Assembly: GCA_049968235.1 (NCBI GenBank)
Contig: JBMFRC010000033.1
Span: 1-22,070 of the forward strand
Length of the DNA: 22,070 nucleotides
Direction: 5' to 3'
DNA from: Candidatus Hydrogenedens sp.
GTDB lineage: Bacteria; Hydrogenedentota; Hydrogenedentia; Hydrogenedentales; Hydrogenedentaceae
Part shown: piece by piece, positions 2,909-18,412 of the stretch
Layout: each line of letters begins with the position of its first letter
How positions within the stretch are numbered: the stretch's first letter is position 1
Position numbers and translations under genes: made by a program
Notes under the pieces: generated by a model
The model's input: the letters and a program-made list of their open reading frames with translations, nothing else
What the model was told of the DNA's origin: nothing
Databases searched by the model: none

Positions 2909-3405
2909 ATCACTACCTCCTGATTAAATATCTTCATCTCAAATTAATATATCACGAAATATCACAAAATAAAAATTTTTTAATAGGAATCACGATATAA
3001 TAAAAACCAAATGTAAAGAAGCTTACAAAAAACAAACCATAGATTTTTAAATTGTTATATAAAAAAATTCTATTTTTAATGTATAACTAAAAATCTTTTT
3101 CTTTCTAAATTAAAGTAAAAATACTTTGCATTTTTTAAATTTTACAAAGAGAAATCCATATTTTTGCAAACAAGCCAACTTGCAAAATTATCATTATTAT
3201 CATTATGCAGATATAAAATATTACATTTATGTGTATTTTTTATTTATTTATAAAAAAATAAGGTATTTTTATAAAAAAATTGCCTTAAAACTTAATATTT
3301 ATTACATAATGGAATTATTAAACATATATTTTGTGTTGATTTTATACAATAATGTATGTTAATATATACATATTATTTTCAAATAATTTTTTCGGAGTTA
3401 CTAAA

Positions 3406-6400
3406 ATGCAGAAAGAACCTCACCAACAAAAAACTTTATATGCCCCTTTCTTTGAACATGATGCCTGTGGCGTGGGATTTATTGTAAATATTGATGGGAA
3501 GAGAACTCATCAATTAGTGAAAGATGCCCTTCGTATATTGGTAAATCTTACCCATCGCGGTGCATGTGGGTGCGACCCTGAAACGGGTGATGGTTGTGGT
3601 ATTTTATTTCATATTCCTCATCGTTTTTTTGAGAAGCAATCCGATAGTTTAGGTTTTGATTTACCTTCTCCGGGGCAATATGGGATAGGAATGGTTTTTC
3701 TTCCAGGAGACAATCAATTAAGAAGTGTTTGCAAAGAAATGTTAAAACAGACTATTTTGGAAGAGGGTCAGGGATTTTTAGGTTGGCGCGAGGTTCCACG
3801 AAATTCTCAATGTATTGGCTGGCTTGCCCGTTCTAACGAGCCCATTATTGAACAAATATTTATAAAAAATGTAACCTGCCCGGATATTGAATCTTTTGAA
3901 CGCAAACTATTTATCATTCGTAAGTCTGCTTCTCATAAAATTCGACAATTTTTGAAAGAGCAAAAAAATCTTTTTTATATAACAAGTATGTCTGCGAGGA
4001 CAATTGTATATAAGGGTCTATTTTTACCTGAAGTCATGGATAAATATTACGAAGATTTAGCAGACCCTGAAGTAGAGAGTGCTTTAGCGATTATTCATCA
4101 GCGGTATAGTACCAACACACTTCCCAGCTGGCAATTAGCACAACCATTTCGTTTTCTTGCTCACAATGGAGAAATTAATACCCTGCGAGGGAATATCAAT
4201 CTTATGTGTTCGCGTGAATCGGATTTGAAAAGCCCTCTTTATGGAGATGATATAAAGAAACTATTTCCTATTTTAACAGAGGGAGCCAGTGACTCTGCCA
4301 TTTTTGACAATGCTTTTGAATTGCTCGTTCGGGGAGGTCGTAGCATTGCTCATTCCATGATGATGATGATACCTGAACCCTGGAGTCATCACGAAAGTAT
4401 GCCGGATTTTAAGAAGGCTTTCTATGAATTCCATGCATGTAAGATGGAACCCTGGGATGGACCCGCATGTATGGCTTTTACAGATGGAGTACAGATAGGA
4501 GCCGTTCTTGACCGTAACGGACTGCGTCCGGCTCGCTACTGGATTACCACAGACCAGCAAGTTATTATGGCTTCTGAAGTGGGAGTTTTAGACATACCAC
4601 AGGAAAAAATTGTAAAGAAATGGCGATTGCAACCGGGTCGTATGTTCCTTGTGGACCTCAATGAAAAACGAATTATTGAAGATGATGAAATAAAAGAGAC
4701 CTTAGCCAACAGGAAACCTTATCGTGCATGGCTCAGTTTAAACCGTATTATTTTCCCGCAAGAAGTACTGGAGACAAGACCTACAACAGAATTAGTTCCA
4801 CTTCGTAAAAGGCAAAAAATTTTTGGTTATACAGAAGAGGATATCTCGCTTTTGCTCAAGCCAATGGCAGAAACAGGGGCAGAACCTGTGGGTTCAATGG
4901 GGAATGATGTTCCTTTAGCAGTTCTTTCAGAACGACCCCAATTATTATTTAATTATTTCAAACAGTTATTTGCCCAGGTCACAAATCCGCCTTTAGACCC
5001 CATACGCGAAGAAATTGTTATGTCTCTCGAAACGGACATTGGTCGGGAATATAACCTTTTAGATGAAACTCCTGAAGATTGCCAGATGATACATCTACAT
5101 TCTCCGATTCTTACCAATGCACAGGTAACTTATATTCGCAATTTAAAGAAAAAAGGACATCGGGCAGAATCTATCAGTACATTATTCTCAGTAAAGGAAG
5201 GTATTCCGGGCTTTCTAAATGCCATTGACCGAATTTGTAAAGAAGCCGAAAAATATGTGGATAATGGGGCTACCGTTTTAATTCTTTCGGACCGTGGAGC
5301 AGGACTACATCATGCACCCCTTCCCAGTTTATTAGCCACAGGTGCGATTCATCATCATCTTGTTCGTGTTCACAAACGGACTCGCTGTGGAATTGTTGTT
5401 GAGAGTGGCGAACCTCGTGAAGTGATGCATTTTGCCCTGTTGTGTGGATATGGCGCCGGTGCTATTAATCCTTATCTCGCTTTTGAAACTATCTCGGAAG
5501 GTATTGAGGAAGGGAAAATTGTTGAAGAATATCCCGGTAAAGCCCATAAAAAATATATTAAAGCCATTGAAAAAGGGTTATTAAAAACTATGTCGAAAAT
5601 GGGTATTTCTACCCTCCAAAGTTATCGATGTGCTCAGATTTTTGAAGCGTTAGGTCTAAGTCAGGAGGTAATCGACCGCTGTTTCACAGGCACACCTTCC
5701 CGGATAGGGGGATTAGACCTTGAAGATATAGCACGGGAAACCTTAATGCGTCATGAGATGGCTTATAATCCGTTAAAATTCCGTGAAAACGAGTTAGATA
5801 TTGGCGGGGCGTATCGCTGGCGACAGAGAGGTGAGTTCCATCAATGGAATCCGGAGACTATTTCTCTTATCCAGCATGCTACTCGATTAAACAGTTGGCA
5901 GAAATATCAGCAATTTGCAGAAGAAGTTAATAATCGAAATCGGACTTTTGCAACACTTCGCGGACTACTTAAATTTAAGAAAGGAAACCCTATACCCTTA
6001 GAGGAAGTTGAACCTGCTTCTGAAATTGTAAAACGGTTCTGTACAGGGGCTATGTCCTATGGTTCTATTAGTCAGGAAGCCCATGAGAATCTTGCTCTTG
6101 CCATGAATCGTATTGGTGGAAGAAGTAATACGGGAGAAGGAGGTGAAGACCCCAAACGATTCATCCCGGAACCTAACGGTGATAGCAAACGCAGTGCAAT
6201 TAAGCAAGTAGCCTCTGGAAGATTTGGTGTAACTAATGAATACCTTGTCAATGCGGATGAATTACAAATAAAGATGGCTCAGGGAGCTAAACCAGGAGAA
6301 GGAGGACAGTTACCAGGGCATAAAGTATACGAAAATATCGCTAAAGTTCGATATTCGACACCGGGCGTGGAACTGATTTCCCCTCCACCACACCATGATA

Positions 6401-9456: not shown

Positions 9457-10314
9457 TTATCTTTTTTGTTCAAGGGCAGAACGGTATTGATTAATTCGTT
9501 CGAGCCATGTGGTAGTGAGGGTAAGCGGGTATACAGTATATCGGGGAGAAGTAGCAGGTTTTGTTTGAAATTCTTTTTCTGCTTCGGGAATCATCTGTCT
9601 GTAACTTATATCTGGTGGGGTGAATTTTGCATTAGAATTTTTAGCGTTAGTAATAAAACGAATAGAACGATTTATATCACTAGCACTTCTTTTCGTCTTT
9701 ACAAGGGTTTTGGGGTCTGTTCCCCACTCATATAAAATCACAGGTCCATTGTTTCCGGTAGCGACACCTGCCATAGATAAATCTGTCCCACTGCGATAAT
9801 CCATCATTGCATCCAGCCAATCAAAGGGAATTCCATAATAATAATCATACGCACCGAATACCCTACCTTCCGAGAAGCCATCATTATATCCATCTGTAAA
9901 ACCCCCATCTAACCATTCCACATGCTTATCTGTTTTGAGGAATGCCTTCCAGTTTGCCTGGTAAGCACAATCATAACCTTCACTAAAACCGATAGTAAAA
10001 GCATAGTCATATTCCACAAAGTAACCATCATTATATGCGAACCATAAACCGTCGTAATACCCTGCATCATAAGGAGGATTTTCTACCTGCGGTATTTGTT
10101 CCCCCTGATAGTATATTGCTCCGCCATTTACAGTATCATAACTATCAAAAAAACCAGTCCAATAGTATTCGTCCTGTGCAAAACCATCATTAAAACCGCG
10201 TTCATATTCTGCATTATCAGTAATTATGGGACACCCTATAAATGCAACTATAATGAGCGGTAAAATTCCTAAATACAGTCTCCGCATTTTGCTCTTTCTG
10301 CTTTCCTGTTTCAT
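9457..10314 (-). CDS. Putative lipoprotein with aromatic/Asp-Gly repeats (hypothetical)
   Basis: The ORF extends to 10368. I place the start at ATG 10314 (MKQESRKSKMRRLYLGILPLIIVAFIGC...) because AAGGAA lies 6 nt upstream. The N-terminus has a positively charged n-region, a hydrophobic h-region and a lipobox-like 'FIGC'. The mature part holds at least 6 copies of G[F/Y]xDG[F/Y/L] and is extremely Tyr/Trp/Asp/Gly-rich. I recognise no homology. It is co-oriented with, and 35 nt downstream of, the 849-aa gene. Confidence 0.6.
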   Translation of the reverse strand: MKQESRKSKMRRLYLGILPLIIVAFIGCPIITDNAEYERGFNDGFAQDEYYWTGFFDSYDTVNGGAIYYQGEQIPQVENPPYDAGYYDGLWFAYNDGYFVEYDYAFTIGFSEGYDCAYQANWKAFLKTDKHVEWLDGGFTDGYNDGFSEGRVFGAYDYYYGIPFDWLDAMMDYRSGTDLSMAGVATGNNGPVILYEWGTDPKTLVKTKRSASDINRSIRFITNAKNSNAKFTPPDISYRQMIPEAEKEFQTKPATSPRYTVYPLTLTTTWLERINQYRSALEQKR

Positions 10315-10348
10315 AATACATTCCTTATATAAAAATTGTTTTAATCTT

Positions 10349-12898
10349 TTATCGTATCCCTCTTCCACCCAGAGAAGACCTGCCGTTTGAGAATCCTGGT
10401 GATTGCCTCTGGAAAGAAGGGGTGCTCGGTGTAGCGAAGGAAGGTGTATTTACTTTCGGTACGGAAAAACTTGATGGAGCGGAATTGCGTTCTATCGGAG
10501 GGGAACTCATTGTCGTAGCAGAGGATGACGGAGGAGTTACAGAGAAACTCCTAGTACTCAAACTGTTTCTATTGAATGATGGAAAAGAAGAAATGGAGTT
10601 TTTATTTGTATTTCTTGAAATCCCGAAAGATGTATTTCCTCTCGGGACATCAGGGACAGAGAAAGACATATCTTTCTGAGGGGGAAGTGTTCGAACGGAA
10701 ATCCCGGAGTTTCCGCTAATGGATGTTCTTTCTGGGAAGATATTCACATTGGCTTCTCTCAAGGTTCCTCTTGAAAATGTTCCTGCTCCTCTATTACCAT
10801 CTGTTGAACGAATTTGAAATTCGGGAACAGATGTGCGTTGAGGTGTTTCATGTTGATTTCTCACAGAGCCATAAGTCCCAATATCTGTTGGCGTTTGTTT
10901 CATATTATCCCAATTTAAGCCGGAACCTCTTGTATTTCCGCGACTACCCGGATTATTACGGTCTGTTGGTATAGAACGCGGAGTAGTATTGTCTCTATCT
11001 CGATTTGTTGTTCCTGACCCTGAATCATTCCGGGGAGTTGTTCGTGTAGGGCTTGTCGTTGAACCACCTCCGGATGGATCATACTCACGGGGTTTCCGTT
11101 CACCATTCATATCCAGTCTTGAAAAAGATGGGGATTCAATCCCTTTGCGGGAAACTCCCTCTGATTGATTGGGTATTTCGGAGAAGGCATTTCTTATTCC
11201 TCTGTTTACTGCAGGTGGGTTTAGAACTCTTGTCGGAGATGATTCCGAACGAAGTGTATTCCTAACATCAGCACTTCGGACGGGAGAACCTATATTTTCA
11301 CGGACAGATTGTATTTGTGTATTTCGCTCTATAGCCCGAGTAAATCCGGTGTCAATTTCTTTACCTCGAATTGAACTACGGTCCGTTGATGAACCTCTTT
11401 GCGAAAGGACTTCGGGAGCGAAACGGGTAGCAGTTGCCTCTGGAGAGGTGGTGTTTAATCTTACCTCACGGAAAGAACTGGAACGCTCATTTAACATAGC
11501 GGTCCGCATAGCGGAAGAAGGCATTCCTGTTTGACTTCGGAAACCTTGTGTCGAGGTTCTTCGTGTAAAATAACTTTCCAATTCTTCTACACGGGCTCGT
11601 GCAAGTATCCCTGAATTATTATAGTTAGCAATACCTCGAATAGTTCTCGGCGGATTATAATCGCGAACCATCGGCATTGAGTTCTGGTAAGGGATGCGTA
11701 TCCTTTGAGAAGGATAGCGTTCTATATTCCAGACATAAACATTTGTTGGATTGTTTATAATGTAATTAACAACTGTAGGTGCCACAGGTGCGATATAGTA
11801 AGGAGATGTATAAACATAAGTTGCAGGGACATAGGAACAGGCACCTACATAAAAGTTTAGACCACCCACCGCAAAACTAACTCCTGTGGAAACTCGAACG
11901 GGCCGGCAATAAAAGTCTACGGGTGTCCAAATAAAATAATCACCACAACGAACCGTAGCCACCCACGCTGGACTCCATACCGGATCATATCCCCAAACCC
12001 AACCATAACTATCATAATAGACCCAACGACCATAGTGTGTGGTGATATATCCGAAAGGATAGGTCTCTACCCAAACGGAACCTATGGGTGATACATAAGT
12101 CCAATATCCTGTCCGATATGGGACATAATTAATAACGACGGTTGGTCTCCAATAATATCGTTCATCAATAAGAACCCAATCTCCATATCGTGATAATTCT
12201 GTATATCCGATTGTCCGATTTGTAACTTCCACATATTTCGGGGGTGTTTTCACGGGAGCAGAGAGTAATTCGGACCGACCTTGATTCCAGCGGTCAAACG
12301 AATCCATTTCAGTTGTTGCAAAGGATACTACTTCAGAGGGCAAATATCCGACATCAACCCAGCATTGTTTACCACTACTTACAACTTCGTTACCTCCGCG
12401 TTCTGTTGTTACATACACCTTTCCCCAGCGTGTCGAAACTCGTGTTGTTCCACTTTCTCCAATGTCTATACGAACACAGGTATCCGGGTCAAAGGTAATG
12501 TTACACGATGGAGTAGTAAAGCGAACGGTCCCAGAACTGCGAAGTACTCTTTCAACATAAAAAGAACCTGTTATACCATATATGGATAGTTCCGGGGAAA
12601 TCTTAACTATTTTTGCTTTAGAAGCATCTGCCATACGGAAGAAGACACCTTCCGGAAATTCAATCTCCGTGCTACCTCCTTTATCCACCCACAATGTATC
12701 CCCTGTTAGCACAAGTGTATTTAAGGTGGCACGGCTCCAATCTTCATCATCCATCCCCCGAATAAGCGTACTTTCGCCATCGTAACTTACCCGCCCATGC
12801 AAAGGGAAGTCTGTATCTGCAAATACCCAGAATGTAGACACGAGTGCCATATTGAATGTAATTACGGCACAAAATTTTGCTATCTTAAAATATTTCAT
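10349..12898 (-). CDS. Secreted FecR-domain protein with Trp/Tyr-rich domain and long Arg/Ser/Thr-rich disordered C-terminal region (hypothetical)
   Basis: A single uninterrupted 849-codon ORF. The N-terminal signal peptide is 'MKYFKIAKFCAVITFNMALVSTFWVFA|DTD'. Residues roughly 30-200 look like a FecR-type beta-sandwich domain. Residues roughly 230-400 are a W/Y-rich segment ('HYGRWVYYDSYGWVWGYDPVWSPAW'). The last roughly 410 aa are low-complexity and rich in R/S/T/N/P/G. Coding status rests on ORF length, far beyond chance, even in the biased tail. Confidence 0.8.
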   Translation of the reverse strand: MKYFKIAKFCAVITFNMALVSTFWVFADTDFPLHGRVSYDGESTLIRGMDDEDWSRATLNTLVLTGDTLWVDKGGSTEIEFPEGVFFRMADASKAKIVKISPELSIYGITGSFYVERVLRSSGTVRFTTPSCNITFDPDTCVRIDIGESGTTRVSTRWGKVYVTTERGGNEVVSSGKQCWVDVGYLPSEVVSFATTEMDSFDRWNQGRSELLSAPVKTPPKYVEVTNRTIGYTELSRYGDWVLIDERYYWRPTVVINYVPYRTGYWTYVSPIGSVWVETYPFGYITTHYGRWVYYDSYGWVWGYDPVWSPAWVATVRCGDYFIWTPVDFYCRPVRVSTGVSFAVGGLNFYVGACSYVPATYVYTSPYYIAPVAPTVVNYIINNPTNVYVWNIERYPSQRIRIPYQNSMPMVRDYNPPRTIRGIANYNNSGILARARVEELESYFTRRTSTQGFRSQTGMPSSAMRTAMLNERSSSFREVRLNTTSPEATATRFAPEVLSQRGSSTDRSSIRGKEIDTGFTRAIERNTQIQSVRENIGSPVRSADVRNTLRSESSPTRVLNPPAVNRGIRNAFSEIPNQSEGVSRKGIESPSFSRLDMNGERKPREYDPSGGGSTTSPTRTTPRNDSGSGTTNRDRDNTTPRSIPTDRNNPGSRGNTRGSGLNWDNMKQTPTDIGTYGSVRNQHETPQRTSVPEFQIRSTDGNRGAGTFSRGTLREANVNIFPERTSISGNSGISVRTLPPQKDMSFSVPDVPRGNTSFGISRNTNKNSISSFPSFNRNSLSTRSFSVTPPSSSATTMSSPPIERNSAPSSFSVPKVNTPSFATPSTPSFQRQSPGFSNGRSSLGGRGIR

Positions 12899-13141
12899 AT
12901 ATTTGCCCTTTCTATAGGATATAGTTACATATTCAATTGTTAATCTCTTTATCCATTAATAATAAACGAAATACAAATTACGAATATTCAGTGGAAGTAA
13001 TGTATAATCCTTCTTCTTACACCAAAATTCCTCATGCAAAATTACTTAGATAGATAATTTCAAAAAACATAAGTGATTGTATTATCATTTTACCATTATT
13101 AAACATATTAAGATGTAATTCGTGATAAAGGTAGTTTTAAG

Positions 13142-14071
13142 ATGAAATTAGATATAGCAGGATTGTCCGATAAAGGACGTAAAAAGGAAAAAAATGAGGA
13201 CTTCTTTGGTATATTCCGAACAGAATCCACAGATATAAAGTTATTTGAAGATGGGGCTCTTCTGATTGTAGCAGATGGGTTAGGAGGACATATCGCAGGA
13301 GATGTTGCAAGTAAATTGGCGGTATCGCTAATTAAAGATATATTGAAACAGGAACCCTGGCAAGAAAATAAGAATGATGAAATCAAAGATTTAAGAGATG
13401 AAGGACCTCTGCCATTACTTCGTGATGCATTTCAAAAAGCCAATGAGAGTATATACAAGACCAATAAAGATTTGGTAAAAGGCAGTAGACCTATGGGGAC
13501 AACCGCATTAGCAGCAATTATTATCCCCGGGAAAATTTATATTGCAAATGTTGGTGATTCCCGCGCATATCATATCCGTAATGGCGAAATTTTAGAATAT
13601 ACCGAAGACCATTCCTGGATAGATGAACAGGTAAAGCAAGGCTTTATGTCCCGTTCTGAGGCTGAAAAAGACACTCGAAAACATGTTGTAACCCGTTGTA
13701 TTGGCACACATGCAGATATTGAAGTGGATGTATATCGCTGGCACCCTGTATCAGGGGATATTCTACTGCTTTGTACCGATGGATTAACGAATATGGTATC
13801 TGATGAACAAATACTTAAAATTATCCGTAAAGGGGGCACAGCAGGTGAAATTGCTCAACAACTGGTTAATCTTGCAAATGAAAATGGCGGGAAAGATAAT
13901 ATAACCGCAATTGTTACTATCATCGAACCCAAACCCCTTCAGCAATTTTTTCTAAAAACGCGATTATTCTGGCGGAAACACGGCGGGAAAATTCTAAAAT
14001 TTATTTTCCTCTTCCTTTATGGATTGTTATGTGGGATATCGGGTTATCTCTTAAGGGGTTTTATTAAATAG
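13142..14071 (+). CDS. PP2C-family Ser/Thr protein phosphatase with C-terminal transmembrane anchor
   Basis: It carries the PP2C motifs 'NEDFF', 'ADGLGGH' and 'NVGDSRAY' (metal-binding Asp), plus 'CTDGLTN' and 'ENGGKDNITAIV'. The C-terminal 'ILKFIFLFLYGLLCGISGYLL' is predicted to form a single TM helix. Confidence 0.88.
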   Translation: MKLDIAGLSDKGRKKEKNEDFFGIFRTESTDIKLFEDGALLIVADGLGGHIAGDVASKLAVSLIKDILKQEPWQENKNDEIKDLRDEGPLPLLRDAFQKANESIYKTNKDLVKGSRPMGTTALAAIIIPGKIYIANVGDSRAYHIRNGEILEYTEDHSWIDEQVKQGFMSRSEAEKDTRKHVVTRCIGTHADIEVDVYRWHPVSGDILLLCTDGLTNMVSDEQILKIIRKGGTAGEIAQQLVNLANENGGKDNITAIVTIIEPKPLQQFFLKTRLFWRKHGGKILKFIFLFLYGLLCGISGYLLRGFIK

Positions 14072-17248: not shown

Positions 17249-18412
17249 ATGCGATATAGAATCTTAAGTTTCACAATCTGTTTTTTTATTTCATCCATTA
17301 TCTTTTGCTCATTTATACATGCTCAAACATTACCTCAGGGAAAAATAAAGGATATTTCTCAATTATGGCAAAAAAATTATAAAGATATATTAAGTGGCTT
17401 CGGGAATATGTATAACTTTCATGTCCTGCATGAACCCGGAGCAGAATATCCCTTTAGGGCATGGTTCTCTGGCTGGGCGTTTGAAGATTGTAACAGAAAT
17501 ATACCCAATTTTAAAGGTTGTGATGCTATCTTTACGGCACGAGCCAAAAAATTGGAGGGGACATGGGAAGTATATGCGGGTGATGATACATGGGATAATA
17601 CAGGAAATCCGAAGTTATGGAAACCTCTCTTTAGCCCCTCCGGTACTTATTTTGACGAATGGCATAATGGAGACCCTTCTGTAATTAAAGTGGGGGAAAA
17701 ATATTATCTGGCATATAGTGCAACTGGACATGATAAAGATCGTATTCCTGCCGACAATCCCAATGATACTGATGGCAGTTTTTACTGTATTATGGGAGCC
17801 ATATCAGAAGATGGGATACACTGGAACCGTTCCGAAAAGCCAATATTAGAGTATACTAACGAGTTAGGCGGTAAAGACAAAACAGGTGATGTTACTTTAT
17901 GGGGCACTTATCATCGACCTTCAATTATATATGAAGATGGCAGATTTAAAATCTGGTTCGATTACTGGACACCTCGTGGAACTGCTATGGGCTATGCGGA
18001 AAATCAAGGGGACTTTTTAAAATCGGAAGACTGGAAATTTATTCGTATAGGAGAAAATCCCTGTATATGGGAATTTCCCAACCCCGATGTTATAAAAGTA
18101 GATGATGTATATTATGCTTATGCAGACCCCGGAGGATACGAGAATCATGAATGGAAAGGACGAAAAATCACAGAAGGCATATCTCGCAATGGTATGGACT
18201 GGCAAATCACAGGATATATAGAACCTGAGTCGGATACACCTGCAACACATGTTCCTGAAGCCCTTGTAATGAGGAAAAATGATAAGAACCTTATCTATCT
18301 TTTCTATTCCTGTCAAATTGGCGGAGAGCCTTCTAAATATAATTTTCGATATAATCGAATCCGTTATATGTACCGCGAAGTCCCACCATCTGAAATAAAA
18401 AAAGGAATATAA
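17249..18412 (+). CDS. Secreted beta-propeller glycoside hydrolase-like protein (GH43/GH130-like clan; family uncertain)
   Basis: Signal peptide 'MRYRILSFTICFFISSIIFCSFIHA|QT'. It has repeated blade-like motifs: 'GDPSVIKVGEKYYLAYSATG', 'GAISEDGIHWNRSEKPIL', 'HRPSIIYEDGRFKIWFD' and 'PDVIKVDDVYYAYAD'. The family assignment is by motif resemblance only. Confidence 0.5.
   Translation: MRYRILSFTICFFISSIIFCSFIHAQTLPQGKIKDISQLWQKNYKDILSGFGNMYNFHVLHEPGAEYPFRAWFSGWAFEDCNRNIPNFKGCDAIFTARAKKLEGTWEVYAGDDTWDNTGNPKLWKPLFSPSGTYFDEWHNGDPSVIKVGEKYYLAYSATGHDKDRIPADNPNDTDGSFYCIMGAISEDGIHWNRSEKPILEYTNELGGKDKTGDVTLWGTYHRPSIIYEDGRFKIWFDYWTPRGTAMGYAENQGDFLKSEDWKFIRIGENPCIWEFPNPDVIKVDDVYYAYADPGGYENHEWKGRKITEGISRNGMDWQITGYIEPESDTPATHVPEALVMRKNDKNLIYLFYSCQIGGEPSKYNFRYNRIRYMYREVPPSEIKKGI

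What the first reader, a model, noticed from the sequence alone, without database searches (positions are those of the whole stretch)
10349..12898. Secreted FecR-domain protein with a roughly 410-aa Arg/Ser/Thr/Asn-rich disordered tail
The protein has four parts: a signal peptide, a FecR-like beta-sandwich, a Trp/Tyr-rich segment (HYGRWVYYDSYGWVWGYDPVWSPAW) and an exceptionally long low-complexity C-terminal half. About half the length is predicted intrinsically disordered. The tail is strongly basic, with Arg roughly every 5-8 residues, and is studded with S/T/N/P/G. That composition is unusual for bacterial envelope linkers, which are usually Pro/Glu/Lys/Ala-rich. The ORF is intact over 2.5 kb, so the tail is under selection to stay open. 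No function is assignable. Possibilities include an envelope-spanning tether, a polyanion (LPS, teichoic acid, eDNA, polyphosphate) binding region, or a scaffold. It probably forms a two-gene operon with the repeat lipoprotein immediately downstream.
Basis: partly seen in the sequence, partly recalled or inferred. Interest (0 to 1): 0.7.

Follow-up and report, generated by a model that had tools for sequence, protein, structure and literature searches.

The report
Exported DUF6600 protein with polycationic tail
This gene encodes an exported bacterial envelope protein with a folded head and a roughly 400-residue disordered tail carrying evenly spaced arginines; it belongs to a very large protein family that nobody has studied, and it is almost always paired with a strongly acidic lipoprotein gene.

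Summary
ORF 10349..12898 (minus strand, 849 aa) in a Candidatus Hydrogenedens MAG contig encodes four parts:
- a Sec-type signal peptide;
- a Trp/Tyr-rich DUF6600 domain (Pfam E 7.5e-19);
- a roughly 400-aa tail with AlphaFold pLDDT about 35.

The tail is not junk.
- All 66 complete orthologous ORFs keep a tail of about 220-510 aa.
- dN/dS is 0.27 in the tail and 0.03 in the head.
- Arg is 12% and Lys 1.7%, although the other genes in the window favour Lys.
- Cationic residues are spaced more evenly than chance.
- Nearly every family member ends in ...[G/S]R-x-R.

The two-gene operon is supported. A strongly acidic Tyr/Asp/Gly-rich lipoprotein with no known fold lies directly downstream in 54 of 59 loci. 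Four of the five exceptions are Lys-rich-tail paralogues.

The protein is not a FecR anti-sigma factor. It has no anti-sigma domain, no transmembrane segment and no STN domain, and no sigma or TonB-receptor genes lie nearby.

It is one member of a catalogued but unstudied family (about 9,500 clusters at 50% identity) whose members generally carry cationic low-complexity tails. The function is inferred only. My best guess is an envelope tether that binds polyanions through the tail and works with the lipoprotein.

The parts
12916..12943 (-). Promoter-like site (TTAACA-16-TATCCT) in the 243-nt AT-rich region between the DUF6600 gene and the divergent PP2C gene
   Evidence: This is a consensus scan only, and the number of such sites is not above the shuffle expectation. 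An AAGGG Shine-Dalgarno-like motif precedes the ATG. Weak evidence.
12818..12898 (-). Sec-type signal peptide, aa 1-27 (MKYFKIAK + 18-aa hydrophobic core + VFA|D)
   Evidence: Read directly from the sequence. Homologues have an equivalent N-terminal hydrophobic segment ending in A-x-A-like sites just before the conserved H-[GA]-R-[VI]-S motif. No SignalP run was possible.
12299..12808 (-). FecR-like beta-sandwich, about aa 31-200
11915..12205 (-). DUF6600 domain (PF20245), aa 232-328: four Trp/Tyr/Gly/Pro-rich beta-hairpins
   Evidence: Pfam E 7.5e-19, 68.2 bits against a cut-off of 27. 49 of 50 homologues hit it. W241, W250, P252, P260, Y261, G264, W266, G273, W276, H288, Y289, G290, W292, W300, W302 and P310 are invariant even in distant members. 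No solved structure matches significantly.
11546..11914 (-). Conserved extension of the head, aa 329-451, with the W-N-I, (V)RDYxPxRxIRG and RVxxLE motifs and a terminal helix at 433-451
   Evidence: Conserved across Hydrogenedentota homologues. pLDDT is about 85-92 up to aa 390, then about 60-90. There is no Pfam model for it.
10352..11545 (-). Disordered polycationic tail, aa 452-849 (R 12%, K 1.7%, S+T 28%, net about +23)
   Evidence: pLDDT is below 50 for 485-849. Composition is. dN/dS is 0.27, with no indels, against Ca. H. terephthalaticus L006. The CV of gaps between cationic residues is 0.56-0.64, against 0.90-0.91 +/- 0.12 in shuffles. Tails are retained in 66 of 66 complete orthologues. 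Short islands are conserved with P0062/P0032, for example FTRAIER, SRLDMxGERKPR and RTTPRNDSG.
10409..10666 (-). Degenerate short-motif region of the tail, aa 745-830 (SFSV-P x3, SAPS, TPSF x2)
   Evidence: A regex scan located the motifs. RSAPS and SAPSR motifs are 14-15 times over-represented across 140 family tails (36 and 33 tails, against 2.4 and 2.2 in shuffles). In many homologues they form tandem peptide repeats.
10352..10366 (-). C-terminal Gly/Arg motif (G-R-G-I-R)
   Evidence: Nearly all of the 143 family representatives end in ...[G/S]-R-x-R or a close variant, such as RGR, GRR or SRR. More distant DUF6600 proteins end in G/R- or G/K-rich termini.
10315..10348 (-). 34-nt spacer between the two genes, with an AAGGA Shine-Dalgarno-like motif and no terminator-like site
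   Evidence: Sequence read. The terminator scan found no site in this spacer.
9457..10314 (-). Partner lipoprotein gene, 285 aa. It has an invariant G-C-P lipobox, an acidic Tyr/Asp/Gly/Phe-rich helical domain (net -23 over the first 175 mature residues) and a mildly basic C-terminal part

Best explanation
Shown:
- The gene encodes a Sec-exported, soluble member of the DUF6600 family.
- Its head is a FecR-like beta-sandwich plus an aromatic-rich DUF6600 hairpin domain, folded up to about aa 450.
- Its roughly 400-residue tail is intrinsically disordered.
- The tail is selected for bulk properties rather than exact sequence. These are Arg rather than Lys, evenly dispersed positive charge, Ser/Thr/Pro filler, a Gly/Arg C-terminus and short S-x-S-A/V-P motifs.
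- It is co-transcribed with a conserved, strongly acidic, Tyr/Asp-rich lipoprotein that is specific to the phylum.

Inferred:
- The pair forms a membrane-anchored envelope complex in which the lipoprotein supplies the lipid anchor. A +2 Pro after the Cys, and no Asp, suggests outer-membrane sorting if E. coli rules apply.
- The tail acts as a flexible polycationic tether or brush that binds a polyanionic partner by multivalent Arg contacts.
- Because cationic tails occur across the whole DUF6600 family while the lipoprotein is restricted to Hydrogenedentota, the ancestral tail ligand is most likely a universal envelope polyanion such as peptidoglycan, anionic lipid or LPS.
- In this lineage the acidic lipoprotein is an added, probably direct, electrostatic and cation-pi partner.
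For: Export and architecture.

Tail under selection:
- All 66 complete orthologous ORFs keep tails of about 220-510 aa.
- Against L006, omega is 0.27 in the tail and 0.033 in the head, at unsaturated dS of 0.64-0.76.
- 0 of 2000 shuffles stay open.

Arg-specific selection:
- The tail has R 12.0% and K 1.7%, while the other 13 ORFs of this 39.6%-GC window have R 5.1% and K 6.9%.
- Arg stays at 12-20% in R-type tails across loci of 39-71% GC.

Even charge spacing:
- The window tail's gap CV is 0.56, against 0.90 in shuffles, and 0 of 2000 shuffles are as regular.
- Across 125 family tails the mean z is -2.7, and 97.6% are below 0.
- The charge-block variance has z = -4.2 (all).

Conserved terminus and motifs.

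Partner:
- The lipoprotein gene is downstream on the same strand in 54 of 59 loci, with a 34-nt spacer here.
- Its acidic domain carries net -22 to -45, against tail net charges that are mostly +14 to +59.
- The four Lys-rich-tail paralogues lack the lipoprotein, and in two MAGs they coexist with an R-type copy that has it.
- Some lipoprotein homologues carry a PASTA domain directly after the lipobox. PASTA is known from penicillin-binding proteins and PASTA kinases as an extracytoplasmic, peptidoglycan-associated module. This places the pair next to the cell wall.

Family-wide cationic tails.
Against: - There is no experimental or structural evidence of any interaction, and no complex prediction could be run.
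- Tail net charge and lipoprotein net charge do not covary significantly (r = -0.22, p = 0.12, n = 51).
- Distant DUF6600 proteins have cationic tails but no lipoprotein neighbour and no conserved neighbourhood at all. The lipoprotein therefore cannot be the general tail ligand.
- Localisation (periplasm, cell surface or medium) is not known.
- The signal peptide and lipobox were judged by eye.
- The head, rather than the tail, may be what binds the lipoprotein.
- One R-type locus (L064) lacks the lipoprotein gene.
Confidence: 0.4

Rival explanations
1. The protein is released to the cell surface or the medium. Its polycationic tail binds extracellular polyanions such as eDNA, acidic or sulfated exopolysaccharide, polyphosphate or silicate. 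It would then act as a matrix scaffold, adhesin or mineral-nucleating protein, with the head and lipoprotein holding it on the cell.
For: The physico-chemical signature is the same as for the best explanation: evenly spaced Arg, Ser/Thr hydroxyls and a terminal S/G-R-G-R. From my own knowledge, Arg-rich disordered regions of the surface lipoprotein NHBA bind heparin and DNA, and the Arg/Ser-rich C-terminus of Bacillus cereus CotB1 (ending ...SSRGR) drives silica deposition. Hydrogenedentota are reported from EPS-rich mats (abstract of PMC10866078).
Against: There is no secretion-system gene, sorting signal or C-terminal hydrophobic segment. The PASTA-fused lipoprotein variants point to the periplasmic side. 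There is no conserved EPS, sulfatase or nuclease neighbourhood. Nothing distinguishes outside from inside computationally.
Confidence: 0.2
2. The tail is an inert spacer or a carrier of modifications. It would be an entropic bristle or ruler that sets a distance in the envelope, or a mucin-like stretch O-glycosylated on Ser/Thr in the S-A-P-S-type motifs. No specific polyanion is bound.
For: Tail length is kept within a band (median 347 aa, interquartile range 306-398). S+T is 15-47% and Pro 5-18%. RSAPS and SAPSR motifs are 14-15 times enriched. From my own knowledge, they resemble the Ala/Ser/Pro-rich low-complexity sites used by the general O-glycosylation systems of Neisseria and Burkholderia. 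Sequence conservation is low and composition conservation high.
Against: A pure spacer does not explain the strong preference for Arg over Lys in an AT-rich genome, the regular charge spacing or the conserved Gly/Arg terminus. No oligosaccharyltransferase gene lies nearby.
Confidence: 0.2
3. It is a FecR/PupR-type regulator of trans-envelope (cell-surface) signalling that controls an ECF sigma factor.
For: The FecR-like fold of aa 31-200. Some homologues are named 'FecR domain-containing protein' in NCBI.
Against: It has no cytoplasmic anti-sigma domain and no transmembrane helix. The only hydrophobic segment is a cleavable-type signal peptide directly abutting the conserved domain. It has no STN or DUF4974 domain. 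No ECF sigma factor or TonB-dependent receptor gene is in the window or recurs in the 80 related loci.
Confidence: 0.03
4. The tail is a non-functional read-through or a drifting low-complexity appendage, and only the head matters.
For: The tail evolves about 8 times faster than the head (omega 0.27 against 0.033) and is not alignable beyond the genus.
Against: 66 of 66 complete orthologues keep it, and omega is well below 1 with zero indels against L006. Composition, charge spacing and terminus are conserved across about 140 representatives and across a GC range of 39-71%.
Confidence: 0.02

Closest known systems
Pfam DUF6600 (PF20245) proteins: uncharacterised exported bacterial proteins, often annotated 'FecR domain-containing' or 'DUF6600 domain-containing'
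   Same: The Pfam hit is direct and above the cut-off. The order of parts is the same in distant members from Methylibium, Actinomycetota and other bacteria: signal peptide, FecR-like domain, DUF6600, then a net-positive low-complexity tail with a G/R- or G/K-rich end. The family is very large: 9512 cluster representatives at E<=1e-3.
   Different: The tail flavour differs: Arg/Ser/Thr (plus Asn in this genus) here, against Pro/Ala/Arg or Gly/Arg elsewhere. The head carries an extra conserved extension to about aa 450. The dedicated acidic lipoprotein partner was found only in Hydrogenedentota. No member has a published function: the literature searches returned 0 papers.
FecR/PupR anti-sigma regulators of cell-surface signalling (periplasmic CCSSD; PDB 6ovk/6ovm, 4m0h/4m0n)
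   Different: There is no anti-sigma domain, no transmembrane helix, no STN domain and no sigma or TonB-receptor genes. The FecR-like domain sits at the mature N-terminus and is followed by DUF6600 and an IDR.
Arg-rich disordered regions of Gram-negative surface proteins that bind polyanions, for example Neisseria NHBA (own knowledge; named in PMC6477034 in the list, not read)
   Same: An exported protein associated with a lipoprotein and carrying a long IDR, in which arginines could mediate binding to sulfated glycans or DNA. This is a functional analogy only.
   Different: In NHBA the Arg-rich stretch is a short cluster inside a lipoprotein. Here about 50 arginines are spread evenly over about 400 residues of a soluble protein, and the lipoprotein is a separate acidic polypeptide. 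There is no sequence relationship.
Periplasm-spanning linkers of TonB and TolA (own knowledge)
   Same: Long, low-complexity, extended envelope segments rich in Pro and charged residues.
   Different: TonB and TolA have an N-terminal membrane anchor and a folded C-terminal domain, and their linkers are Glu-Pro/Lys-Pro or Ala/Lys/Glu-rich. Here the folded part is N-terminal, the tail ends free in G-R-G-I-R, Lys is avoided and there is no TonB_C hit.

Membership tests
DUF6600 (PF20245) family | Match to the Pfam model above the gathering score | tested here: met
   E 7.5e-19, 68.2 bits against a cut-off of 27, aa 232-328 covering model positions 1-99 of 102. 49 of 50 homologues also match.
DUF6600 (PF20245) family | Family-typical architecture: N-terminal export signal, FecR-like domain, then a net-positive low-complexity C-terminal region | tested here: met
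   The tail net charge is positive in 141 of 143 close representatives and in all 36 more distant members listed.
FecR/PupR-type anti-sigma regulators (cell-surface signalling) | FecR (CJM) beta-sandwich fold | tested here: met
FecR/PupR-type anti-sigma regulators (cell-surface signalling) | Pfam FecR (PF04773) match for this protein | tested here: not met
   No hit at E<=0.1. The link is transitive only: 15 of 50 homologues hit, with best E 1e-9.
FecR/PupR-type anti-sigma regulators (cell-surface signalling) | N-terminal cytoplasmic anti-sigma domain followed by a single transmembrane helix | tested here: not met
   The conserved domain starts at about aa 31, right after a 27-aa signal-peptide-like segment. 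No other 20-aa window exceeds Kyte-Doolittle 1.0.
FecR/PupR-type anti-sigma regulators (cell-surface signalling) | C-terminal STN or DUF4974 domain that contacts a TonB-dependent transducer | tested here: not met
   No such Pfam hit. The FecR-like domain is followed by DUF6600 and a disordered tail.
FecR/PupR-type anti-sigma regulators (cell-surface signalling) | Genetic linkage to an ECF sigma factor and a TonB-dependent receptor | tested here: not met
   None in the 22-kb window. None among the recurrent gene families of the 80 related loci.
C-terminal sorting-signal proteins (LPXTG, PEP-CTERM, MYXO-CTERM and the like) | Signature motif, then a hydrophobic helix, then a basic cluster at the extreme C-terminus | tested here: not met
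   The last 49 residues have mean hydropathy of -0.6 to -1.0 and no hydrophobic stretch. Only the basic end is present.
TonB-like periplasm-spanning proteins | N-terminal membrane anchor and a C-terminal TonB_C domain | tested here: not met
   No TonB_C hit, and the tail ends without a folded domain.
Bacterial lipoproteins (for the partner gene 9457..10314) | Signal peptide ending in a lipobox with an invariant Cys | tested here: met
   ...LIIVAFIG-C-P. G, C and P are invariant in 41 homologues. Judged by eye; no LipoP or SignalP run.
Intrinsically disordered region (for the tail) | No predicted stable structure, low hydrophobic content, compositional bias | tested here: met
   pLDDT is below 50 for 485-849 and DSSP shows almost no secondary structure there. 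Hydrophobic residues average about 13% in family tails. No dedicated disorder predictor was available.

The most novel reading that the evidence does not exclude
DUF6600 proteins could be a widespread, unrecognised class of envelope organisers. Their evenly charged, Arg-specific polycationic tails would form multivalent 'fuzzy' electrostatic assemblies with polyanionic partners. In Hydrogenedentota the partner would be a dedicated, hyper-acidic, Tyr-rich lipoprotein of novel fold. The two would give a membrane-anchored complex resembling a coacervate or a histone-chaperone pair, which structures the periplasm or cell surface. The upstream Ser/Thr kinase or PP2C phosphatase genes might regulate it.
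Probability: 0.12. Interest if true: 0.8.

Novelty: new variant of a known kind. Interest (0 to 1): 0.45.

Why it matters
- **Size of the gap.** The DUF6600 family is very large: about 9,500 clusters at 50% identity, in many phyla. A full-text search of open-access papers and preprints found no paper that mentions it.
- **The tail is a selected feature.** Evidence here includes purifying selection, a preference for Arg over Lys against the genomic bias, regular charge spacing, and a conserved Gly/Arg terminus.
- **A testable partner.** In one phylum the protein is tied to a specific acidic lipoprotein, which gives a candidate to test directly.
- **If the tether model holds.** It would add a new type of envelope-organising element based on long extracytoplasmic disorder, which is rarely studied in bacteria.
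- **If it does not.** The protein remains a well-described member of an uncharacterised family from an uncultured phylum.

Tried and rejected
- **Own contig.** An exact-sequence look-up of the window protein found nothing on record. The source was identified instead through the lipoprotein.
- **Literature.** Searches for DUF6600, PF20245 and IPR046535 returned 0 papers. A search on Arg-rich periplasmic disorder gave nothing specific. Hydrogenedentota papers do not treat this gene, judging by titles and abstracts only.
- **NCBIfam.** No hit for either protein.
- **DNA repeats.** No tandem DNA repeat in the tail, so it is not a repeat array here, unlike several homologues.
- **RNA genes.** Rfam and tRNA scans of the window found nothing.
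- **Charge covariation.** Tail charge against lipoprotein charge was not significant (r = -0.22, p = 0.12), so I do not use it as support.
- **Apparent tail loss.** The apparent truncation in L073 is a masked assembly gap. L079 has one in-frame stop in the head, in a single MAG, and still has a full tail and the lipoprotein. The long gap in L074 is a PASTA insertion in the lipoprotein.
- **Distant neighbourhoods.** The neighbourhoods of distant DUF6600 genes in L086-L088 share nothing.
- **Antisense ORFs.** ORFs of 83-121 aa on the plus strand inside the gene were not pursued. The minus-strand frame shows the dN/dS pattern of a coding gene.
- **Phosphorylation idea.** The upstream kinases have no predicted extracytoplasmic part, so phosphorylation of the exported tail was considered and not adopted.
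Full report
**What is there.** The window is a 22,070-bp, 39.6%-GC contig. The lipoprotein encoded next to the finding is 100% identical to NCBI protein ACP5UA_13755 of a Candidatus Hydrogenedens sp. MAG, carried on a contig of exactly 22,070 bp. The finding's ORF lies on the minus strand at 10349..12898: 849 codons plus TAA. Its neighbours are housekeeping genes. These are gltB/gltD convergent downstream, a divergent PP2C phosphatase upstream, then a TPR protein, dehydroquinate synthase, Ddl and an XPB-like helicase. Rfam and tRNA scans found nothing in the window.

**Checking the observation.** Every descriptive element holds.
- aa 1-27 look like a Sec signal peptide: a basic n-region, an 18-residue hydrophobic core and VFA|D. 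Homologues have an equivalent segment just before a conserved H-[GA]-R-[VI]-S motif. This was read by eye.
- The Trp/Tyr-rich segment is Pfam DUF6600 (aa 232-328, E 7.5e-19).
- Pfam FecR does not hit this protein at E<=0.1. The N-terminal domain is FecR-like all the same:
  - a profile of seven family members matches the crystal structure 4m0n (a putative anti-sigma factor) at E 4.3e-5;
  - 15 of 50 homologues hit PF04773;
  - Foldseek agrees, with E 5.5e-6 to 2e-5.
- The model built from 50 homologues has pLDDT mostly about 85-97 for aa 31-390, about 60-90 up to aa 450, and about 35 for aa 485-849 with almost no secondary structure.
- The tail (aa 441-849) is S 17, R 12, T 11, P 8.6, G 8.3, N 7.8 %, with net charge +23 and a median Arg gap of 7.
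- The open frame is not chance. 0 of 2000 shuffles of the tail DNA lack a stop, and the other two forward frames hold 45 stops.

**The family.**
- A word-indexed search found about 37 relatives. Nearly all are Candidatus Hydrogenedentes, at 40-50% identity over aa 1-445 and 700-780 aa long.
- An exhaustive HMMER scan of 1.84 billion cluster representatives found 9512 proteins at E<=1e-3, 3915 at <=1e-10 and 227 at <=1e-30.
- 143 representatives have the complete head. Their tails have a median of 347 aa, R 16.1%, K 1.3% and mean net charge +32. Nearly all end in ...[G/S]-R-x-R.
- More distant members come from Methylibium, Actinomycetota and unnamed metagenome bins. They keep the same order of parts and a net-positive low-complexity tail with a G/R- or G/K-rich end, although the filler shifts to Pro/Ala or Gly.
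- The polycationic tail is therefore a family trait, not a peculiarity of this gene.
- Full-text searches for DUF6600, PF20245 and IPR046535 returned no paper.

**Is the tail under selection?**
- A scan of one genome per GTDB species returned 80 loci. Their record titles name Hydrogenedentota, apart from bins titled only 'uncultured bacterium' or carrying Nitrospirales, Nitrospiraceae or Bathyarchaeia labels.
- All 66 ORFs that reach a stop codon keep a tail of about 220-510 aa.
- The one apparent truncation (L073) is a masked run of Ns, after which the frame continues to ...RGGRR. One MAG (L079) has a single in-frame stop in the head.
- Against the closest species (Ca. H. terephthalaticus, L006; also 849 aa, with no indels) the head has dN/dS 0.033 and the tail 0.27, at dS 0.64-0.76.
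- The tail is thus about 8 times less constrained than the head, but clearly under purifying selection. Conserved islands include FTRAIER, SRLDMxGERKPR, RTTPRNDSG and the last 50 residues.
- Arg is selected specifically. The tail has R 12.0% and K 1.7%, while the other 13 ORFs of the window have R 5.1% and K 6.9%. Arg stays at 12-20% in R-type tails across loci of 39-71% GC.
- Cationic residues are spaced more regularly than chance:
  - the coefficient of variation of gaps is 0.64 for R and 0.56 for R+K, against 0.90-0.91 +/- 0.12 in shuffles;
  - for R+K, 0 of 2000 shuffles are as regular;
  - the charge-block variance has z = -4.2;
  - across 125 family tails the mean z is -2.7, and 97.6% are below zero.
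- Short motifs (RSAPS, SAPSR) occur in 36 and 33 of 140 tails, against 2.4 and 2.2 expected. In several homologues they form tandem peptide repeats. Here they appear as SFSV-P, SAPS and TPSF near the C-terminus, without any DNA tandem repeat.

**The partner gene.**
- 34 nt downstream, with no terminator-like site in the spacer, lies a 285-aa lipoprotein gene (9457..10314).
- Its G-C-P lipobox is invariant in 41 homologues, and the protein is better conserved than the DUF6600 protein (50-81% identity).
- The first 175 mature residues are G 13, Y 13, D 11, F 7 %, with net charge -23. Across 120 homologues the mean is -31.6 and the range -45 to -22.
- All named hits among the 120 listed (478 at E<=1e-3) come from Hydrogenedentes.
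- In 54 of 59 loci with at least 900 bp downstream, the lipoprotein gene follows on the same strand.
- Four of the five exceptions (L004, L035, L038, L080) have Lys-rich tails. Five of the eight Lys-rich representatives cluster together by head sequence. In two MAGs such a copy coexists with an Arg-type copy that does have the lipoprotein (L035/L082 and L038/L054).
- Some lipoprotein homologues carry a PASTA domain right after the lipobox (E 5e-13). PASTA is known from penicillin-binding proteins and PASTA kinases as an extracytoplasmic, peptidoglycan-associated module. This is indirect support for a periplasmic, wall-proximal location.

**What it is not.**
- It is not a FecR/PupR anti-sigma regulator. 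Only the fold is shared. It has no anti-sigma domain, no transmembrane helix and no STN or DUF4974 domain. No ECF sigma or TonB-dependent receptor gene occurs in the window or recurs in the 80 loci.
- It has no C-terminal sorting signal, because there is no hydrophobic stretch near the end.
- It is not TonB-like.
- The DUF6600 hairpin domain has no significant structural match. Weak resemblances to single-layer beta-sheets (CPAP G-box, OspA) and to YD shells are below significance.

**How it most likely works (inference).**
- The data support a soluble exported protein whose folded head is a protein- or ligand-binding module. Its tail is a flexible, uniformly charged polycation selected for Arg, which suits multivalent binding of carboxylate-, phosphate- or sulfate-rich polymers and cation-pi contacts with aromatic residues.
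- Cationic tails are universal in the family while the lipoprotein is phylum-specific, and distant members have no conserved neighbours. The ancestral ligand should therefore be a universal envelope polyanion: peptidoglycan, anionic lipids or LPS.
- In Hydrogenedentota the co-transcribed lipoprotein is hyper-acidic and Tyr-rich, and it is missing from the Lys-type paralogues. It is the most specific candidate for a direct partner and membrane anchor.
- I put about 0.4 on this 'lipoprotein-associated polycationic envelope tether' model.
- Three points weigh against it:
  - no interaction evidence exists;
  - tail and lipoprotein charges do not covary significantly (r = -0.22, p = 0.12);
  - the head, rather than the tail, may bind the lipoprotein.
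- The rivals are an extracellular matrix, adhesin or mineral-nucleating role (0.2), an inert or glycosylated spacer (0.2), FecR-type signalling (0.03) and a non-functional tail (0.02).

**Novelty and verdict.**
- The protein is a bona fide member of a catalogued but unstudied family, and orthologues sit in GenBank as hypothetical proteins. The gene itself is therefore not new.
- Four things are new here:
  - quantitative evidence that the tail is a selected, Arg-specific, evenly charged polyelectrolyte;
  - the family-wide Gly/Arg terminus;
  - the tight linkage to an acidic lipoprotein of unknown fold;
  - the Lys-type paralogue that lacks the lipoprotein.
- I rate it a new variant of a known kind, with interest 0.45. 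It is a well-supported lead into a large uncharacterised envelope protein family, but the function is still inferred.

Noticed in passing
window 13142-14071 (+); L006-L011 (PP2C at about 3086-4787, -); L065 3289-4647 (-) and about 15 further loci: The gene divergently upstream of the DUF6600 gene is a PP2C Ser/Thr phosphatase with a C-terminal hydrophobic segment. This is so in the window and in the six closest genomes. In 16-17 other Hydrogenedentota loci the same position holds a Hanks-type Ser/Thr kinase fused to a c-di-GMP-binding MshEN domain (Pkinase E 6e-47, MshEN E 6e-19). Two enzymes of one signalling pathway thus sit next to a gene with a Ser/Thr-rich tail. The kinase looks cytoplasmic, so a direct link is unexplained.
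   Followed up: partly
L074 7372-8607 (+); proteins P0228, P0253, P0267, P0305: Some homologues of the partner lipoprotein carry a PASTA domain (E 5e-13). In L074 a (GE)n linker follows it. Both lie between the lipobox and the acidic domain. One homologue (P0247) instead carries a Big_5 domain.
   Followed up: partly
L004, L035, L038, L080 (proteins P0009, P0085, P0079, P0005, P0097): These paralogues have tails that are Lys-rich (K 5-14%) and end in ...GKNK or ...KKNR. They lack the lipoprotein gene. In two MAGs a Lys-type copy coexists with an Arg-type copy. L004 instead has an upstream 301-aa Lys/Ala/Pro-rich low-complexity ORF.
   Followed up: partly
L013, L018, L037, L039, L044, L049, L054, L056, L057, L065, L072, L076, L078 and others, about 100-450 nt after the lipoprotein gene: An AhpC/TSA-like redoxin gene without an obvious signal peptide follows the lipoprotein gene in 15 loci. 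It does not in the window, where gltD converges instead.
   Followed up: no
L001 10436-11242 (-) against 10445-11182 (+): In the 5.1-Mb Hydrogenedentes genome the public gene call at this spot is a Gly/Ala/Val-rich ORF on the wrong strand. The real lipoprotein homologue is on the plus strand and is not called. Similar antisense shadow ORFs recur in the high-GC loci.
   Followed up: yes
L010, L012, L025, L026, L032, L053, L056, L068, L071, L073, L079, L081, L084 (record titles): Several contigs carrying this Hydrogenedentota-type gene pair belong to MAGs labelled 'uncultured Nitrospirales/Nitrospiraceae' or 'Candidatus Bathyarchaeia archaeon'. These are probably taxonomic mislabels or binning contamination.
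   Followed up: no
window 2909-3351: The roughly 440-bp intergenic region upstream of gltB has very low GC (about 28-29%). Rfam found no riboswitch or other RNA family there.
   Followed up: partly
window 17249-18412 (+): A 387-aa ORF with no Pfam hit at E<=1e-5. Not examined further.
   Followed up: no
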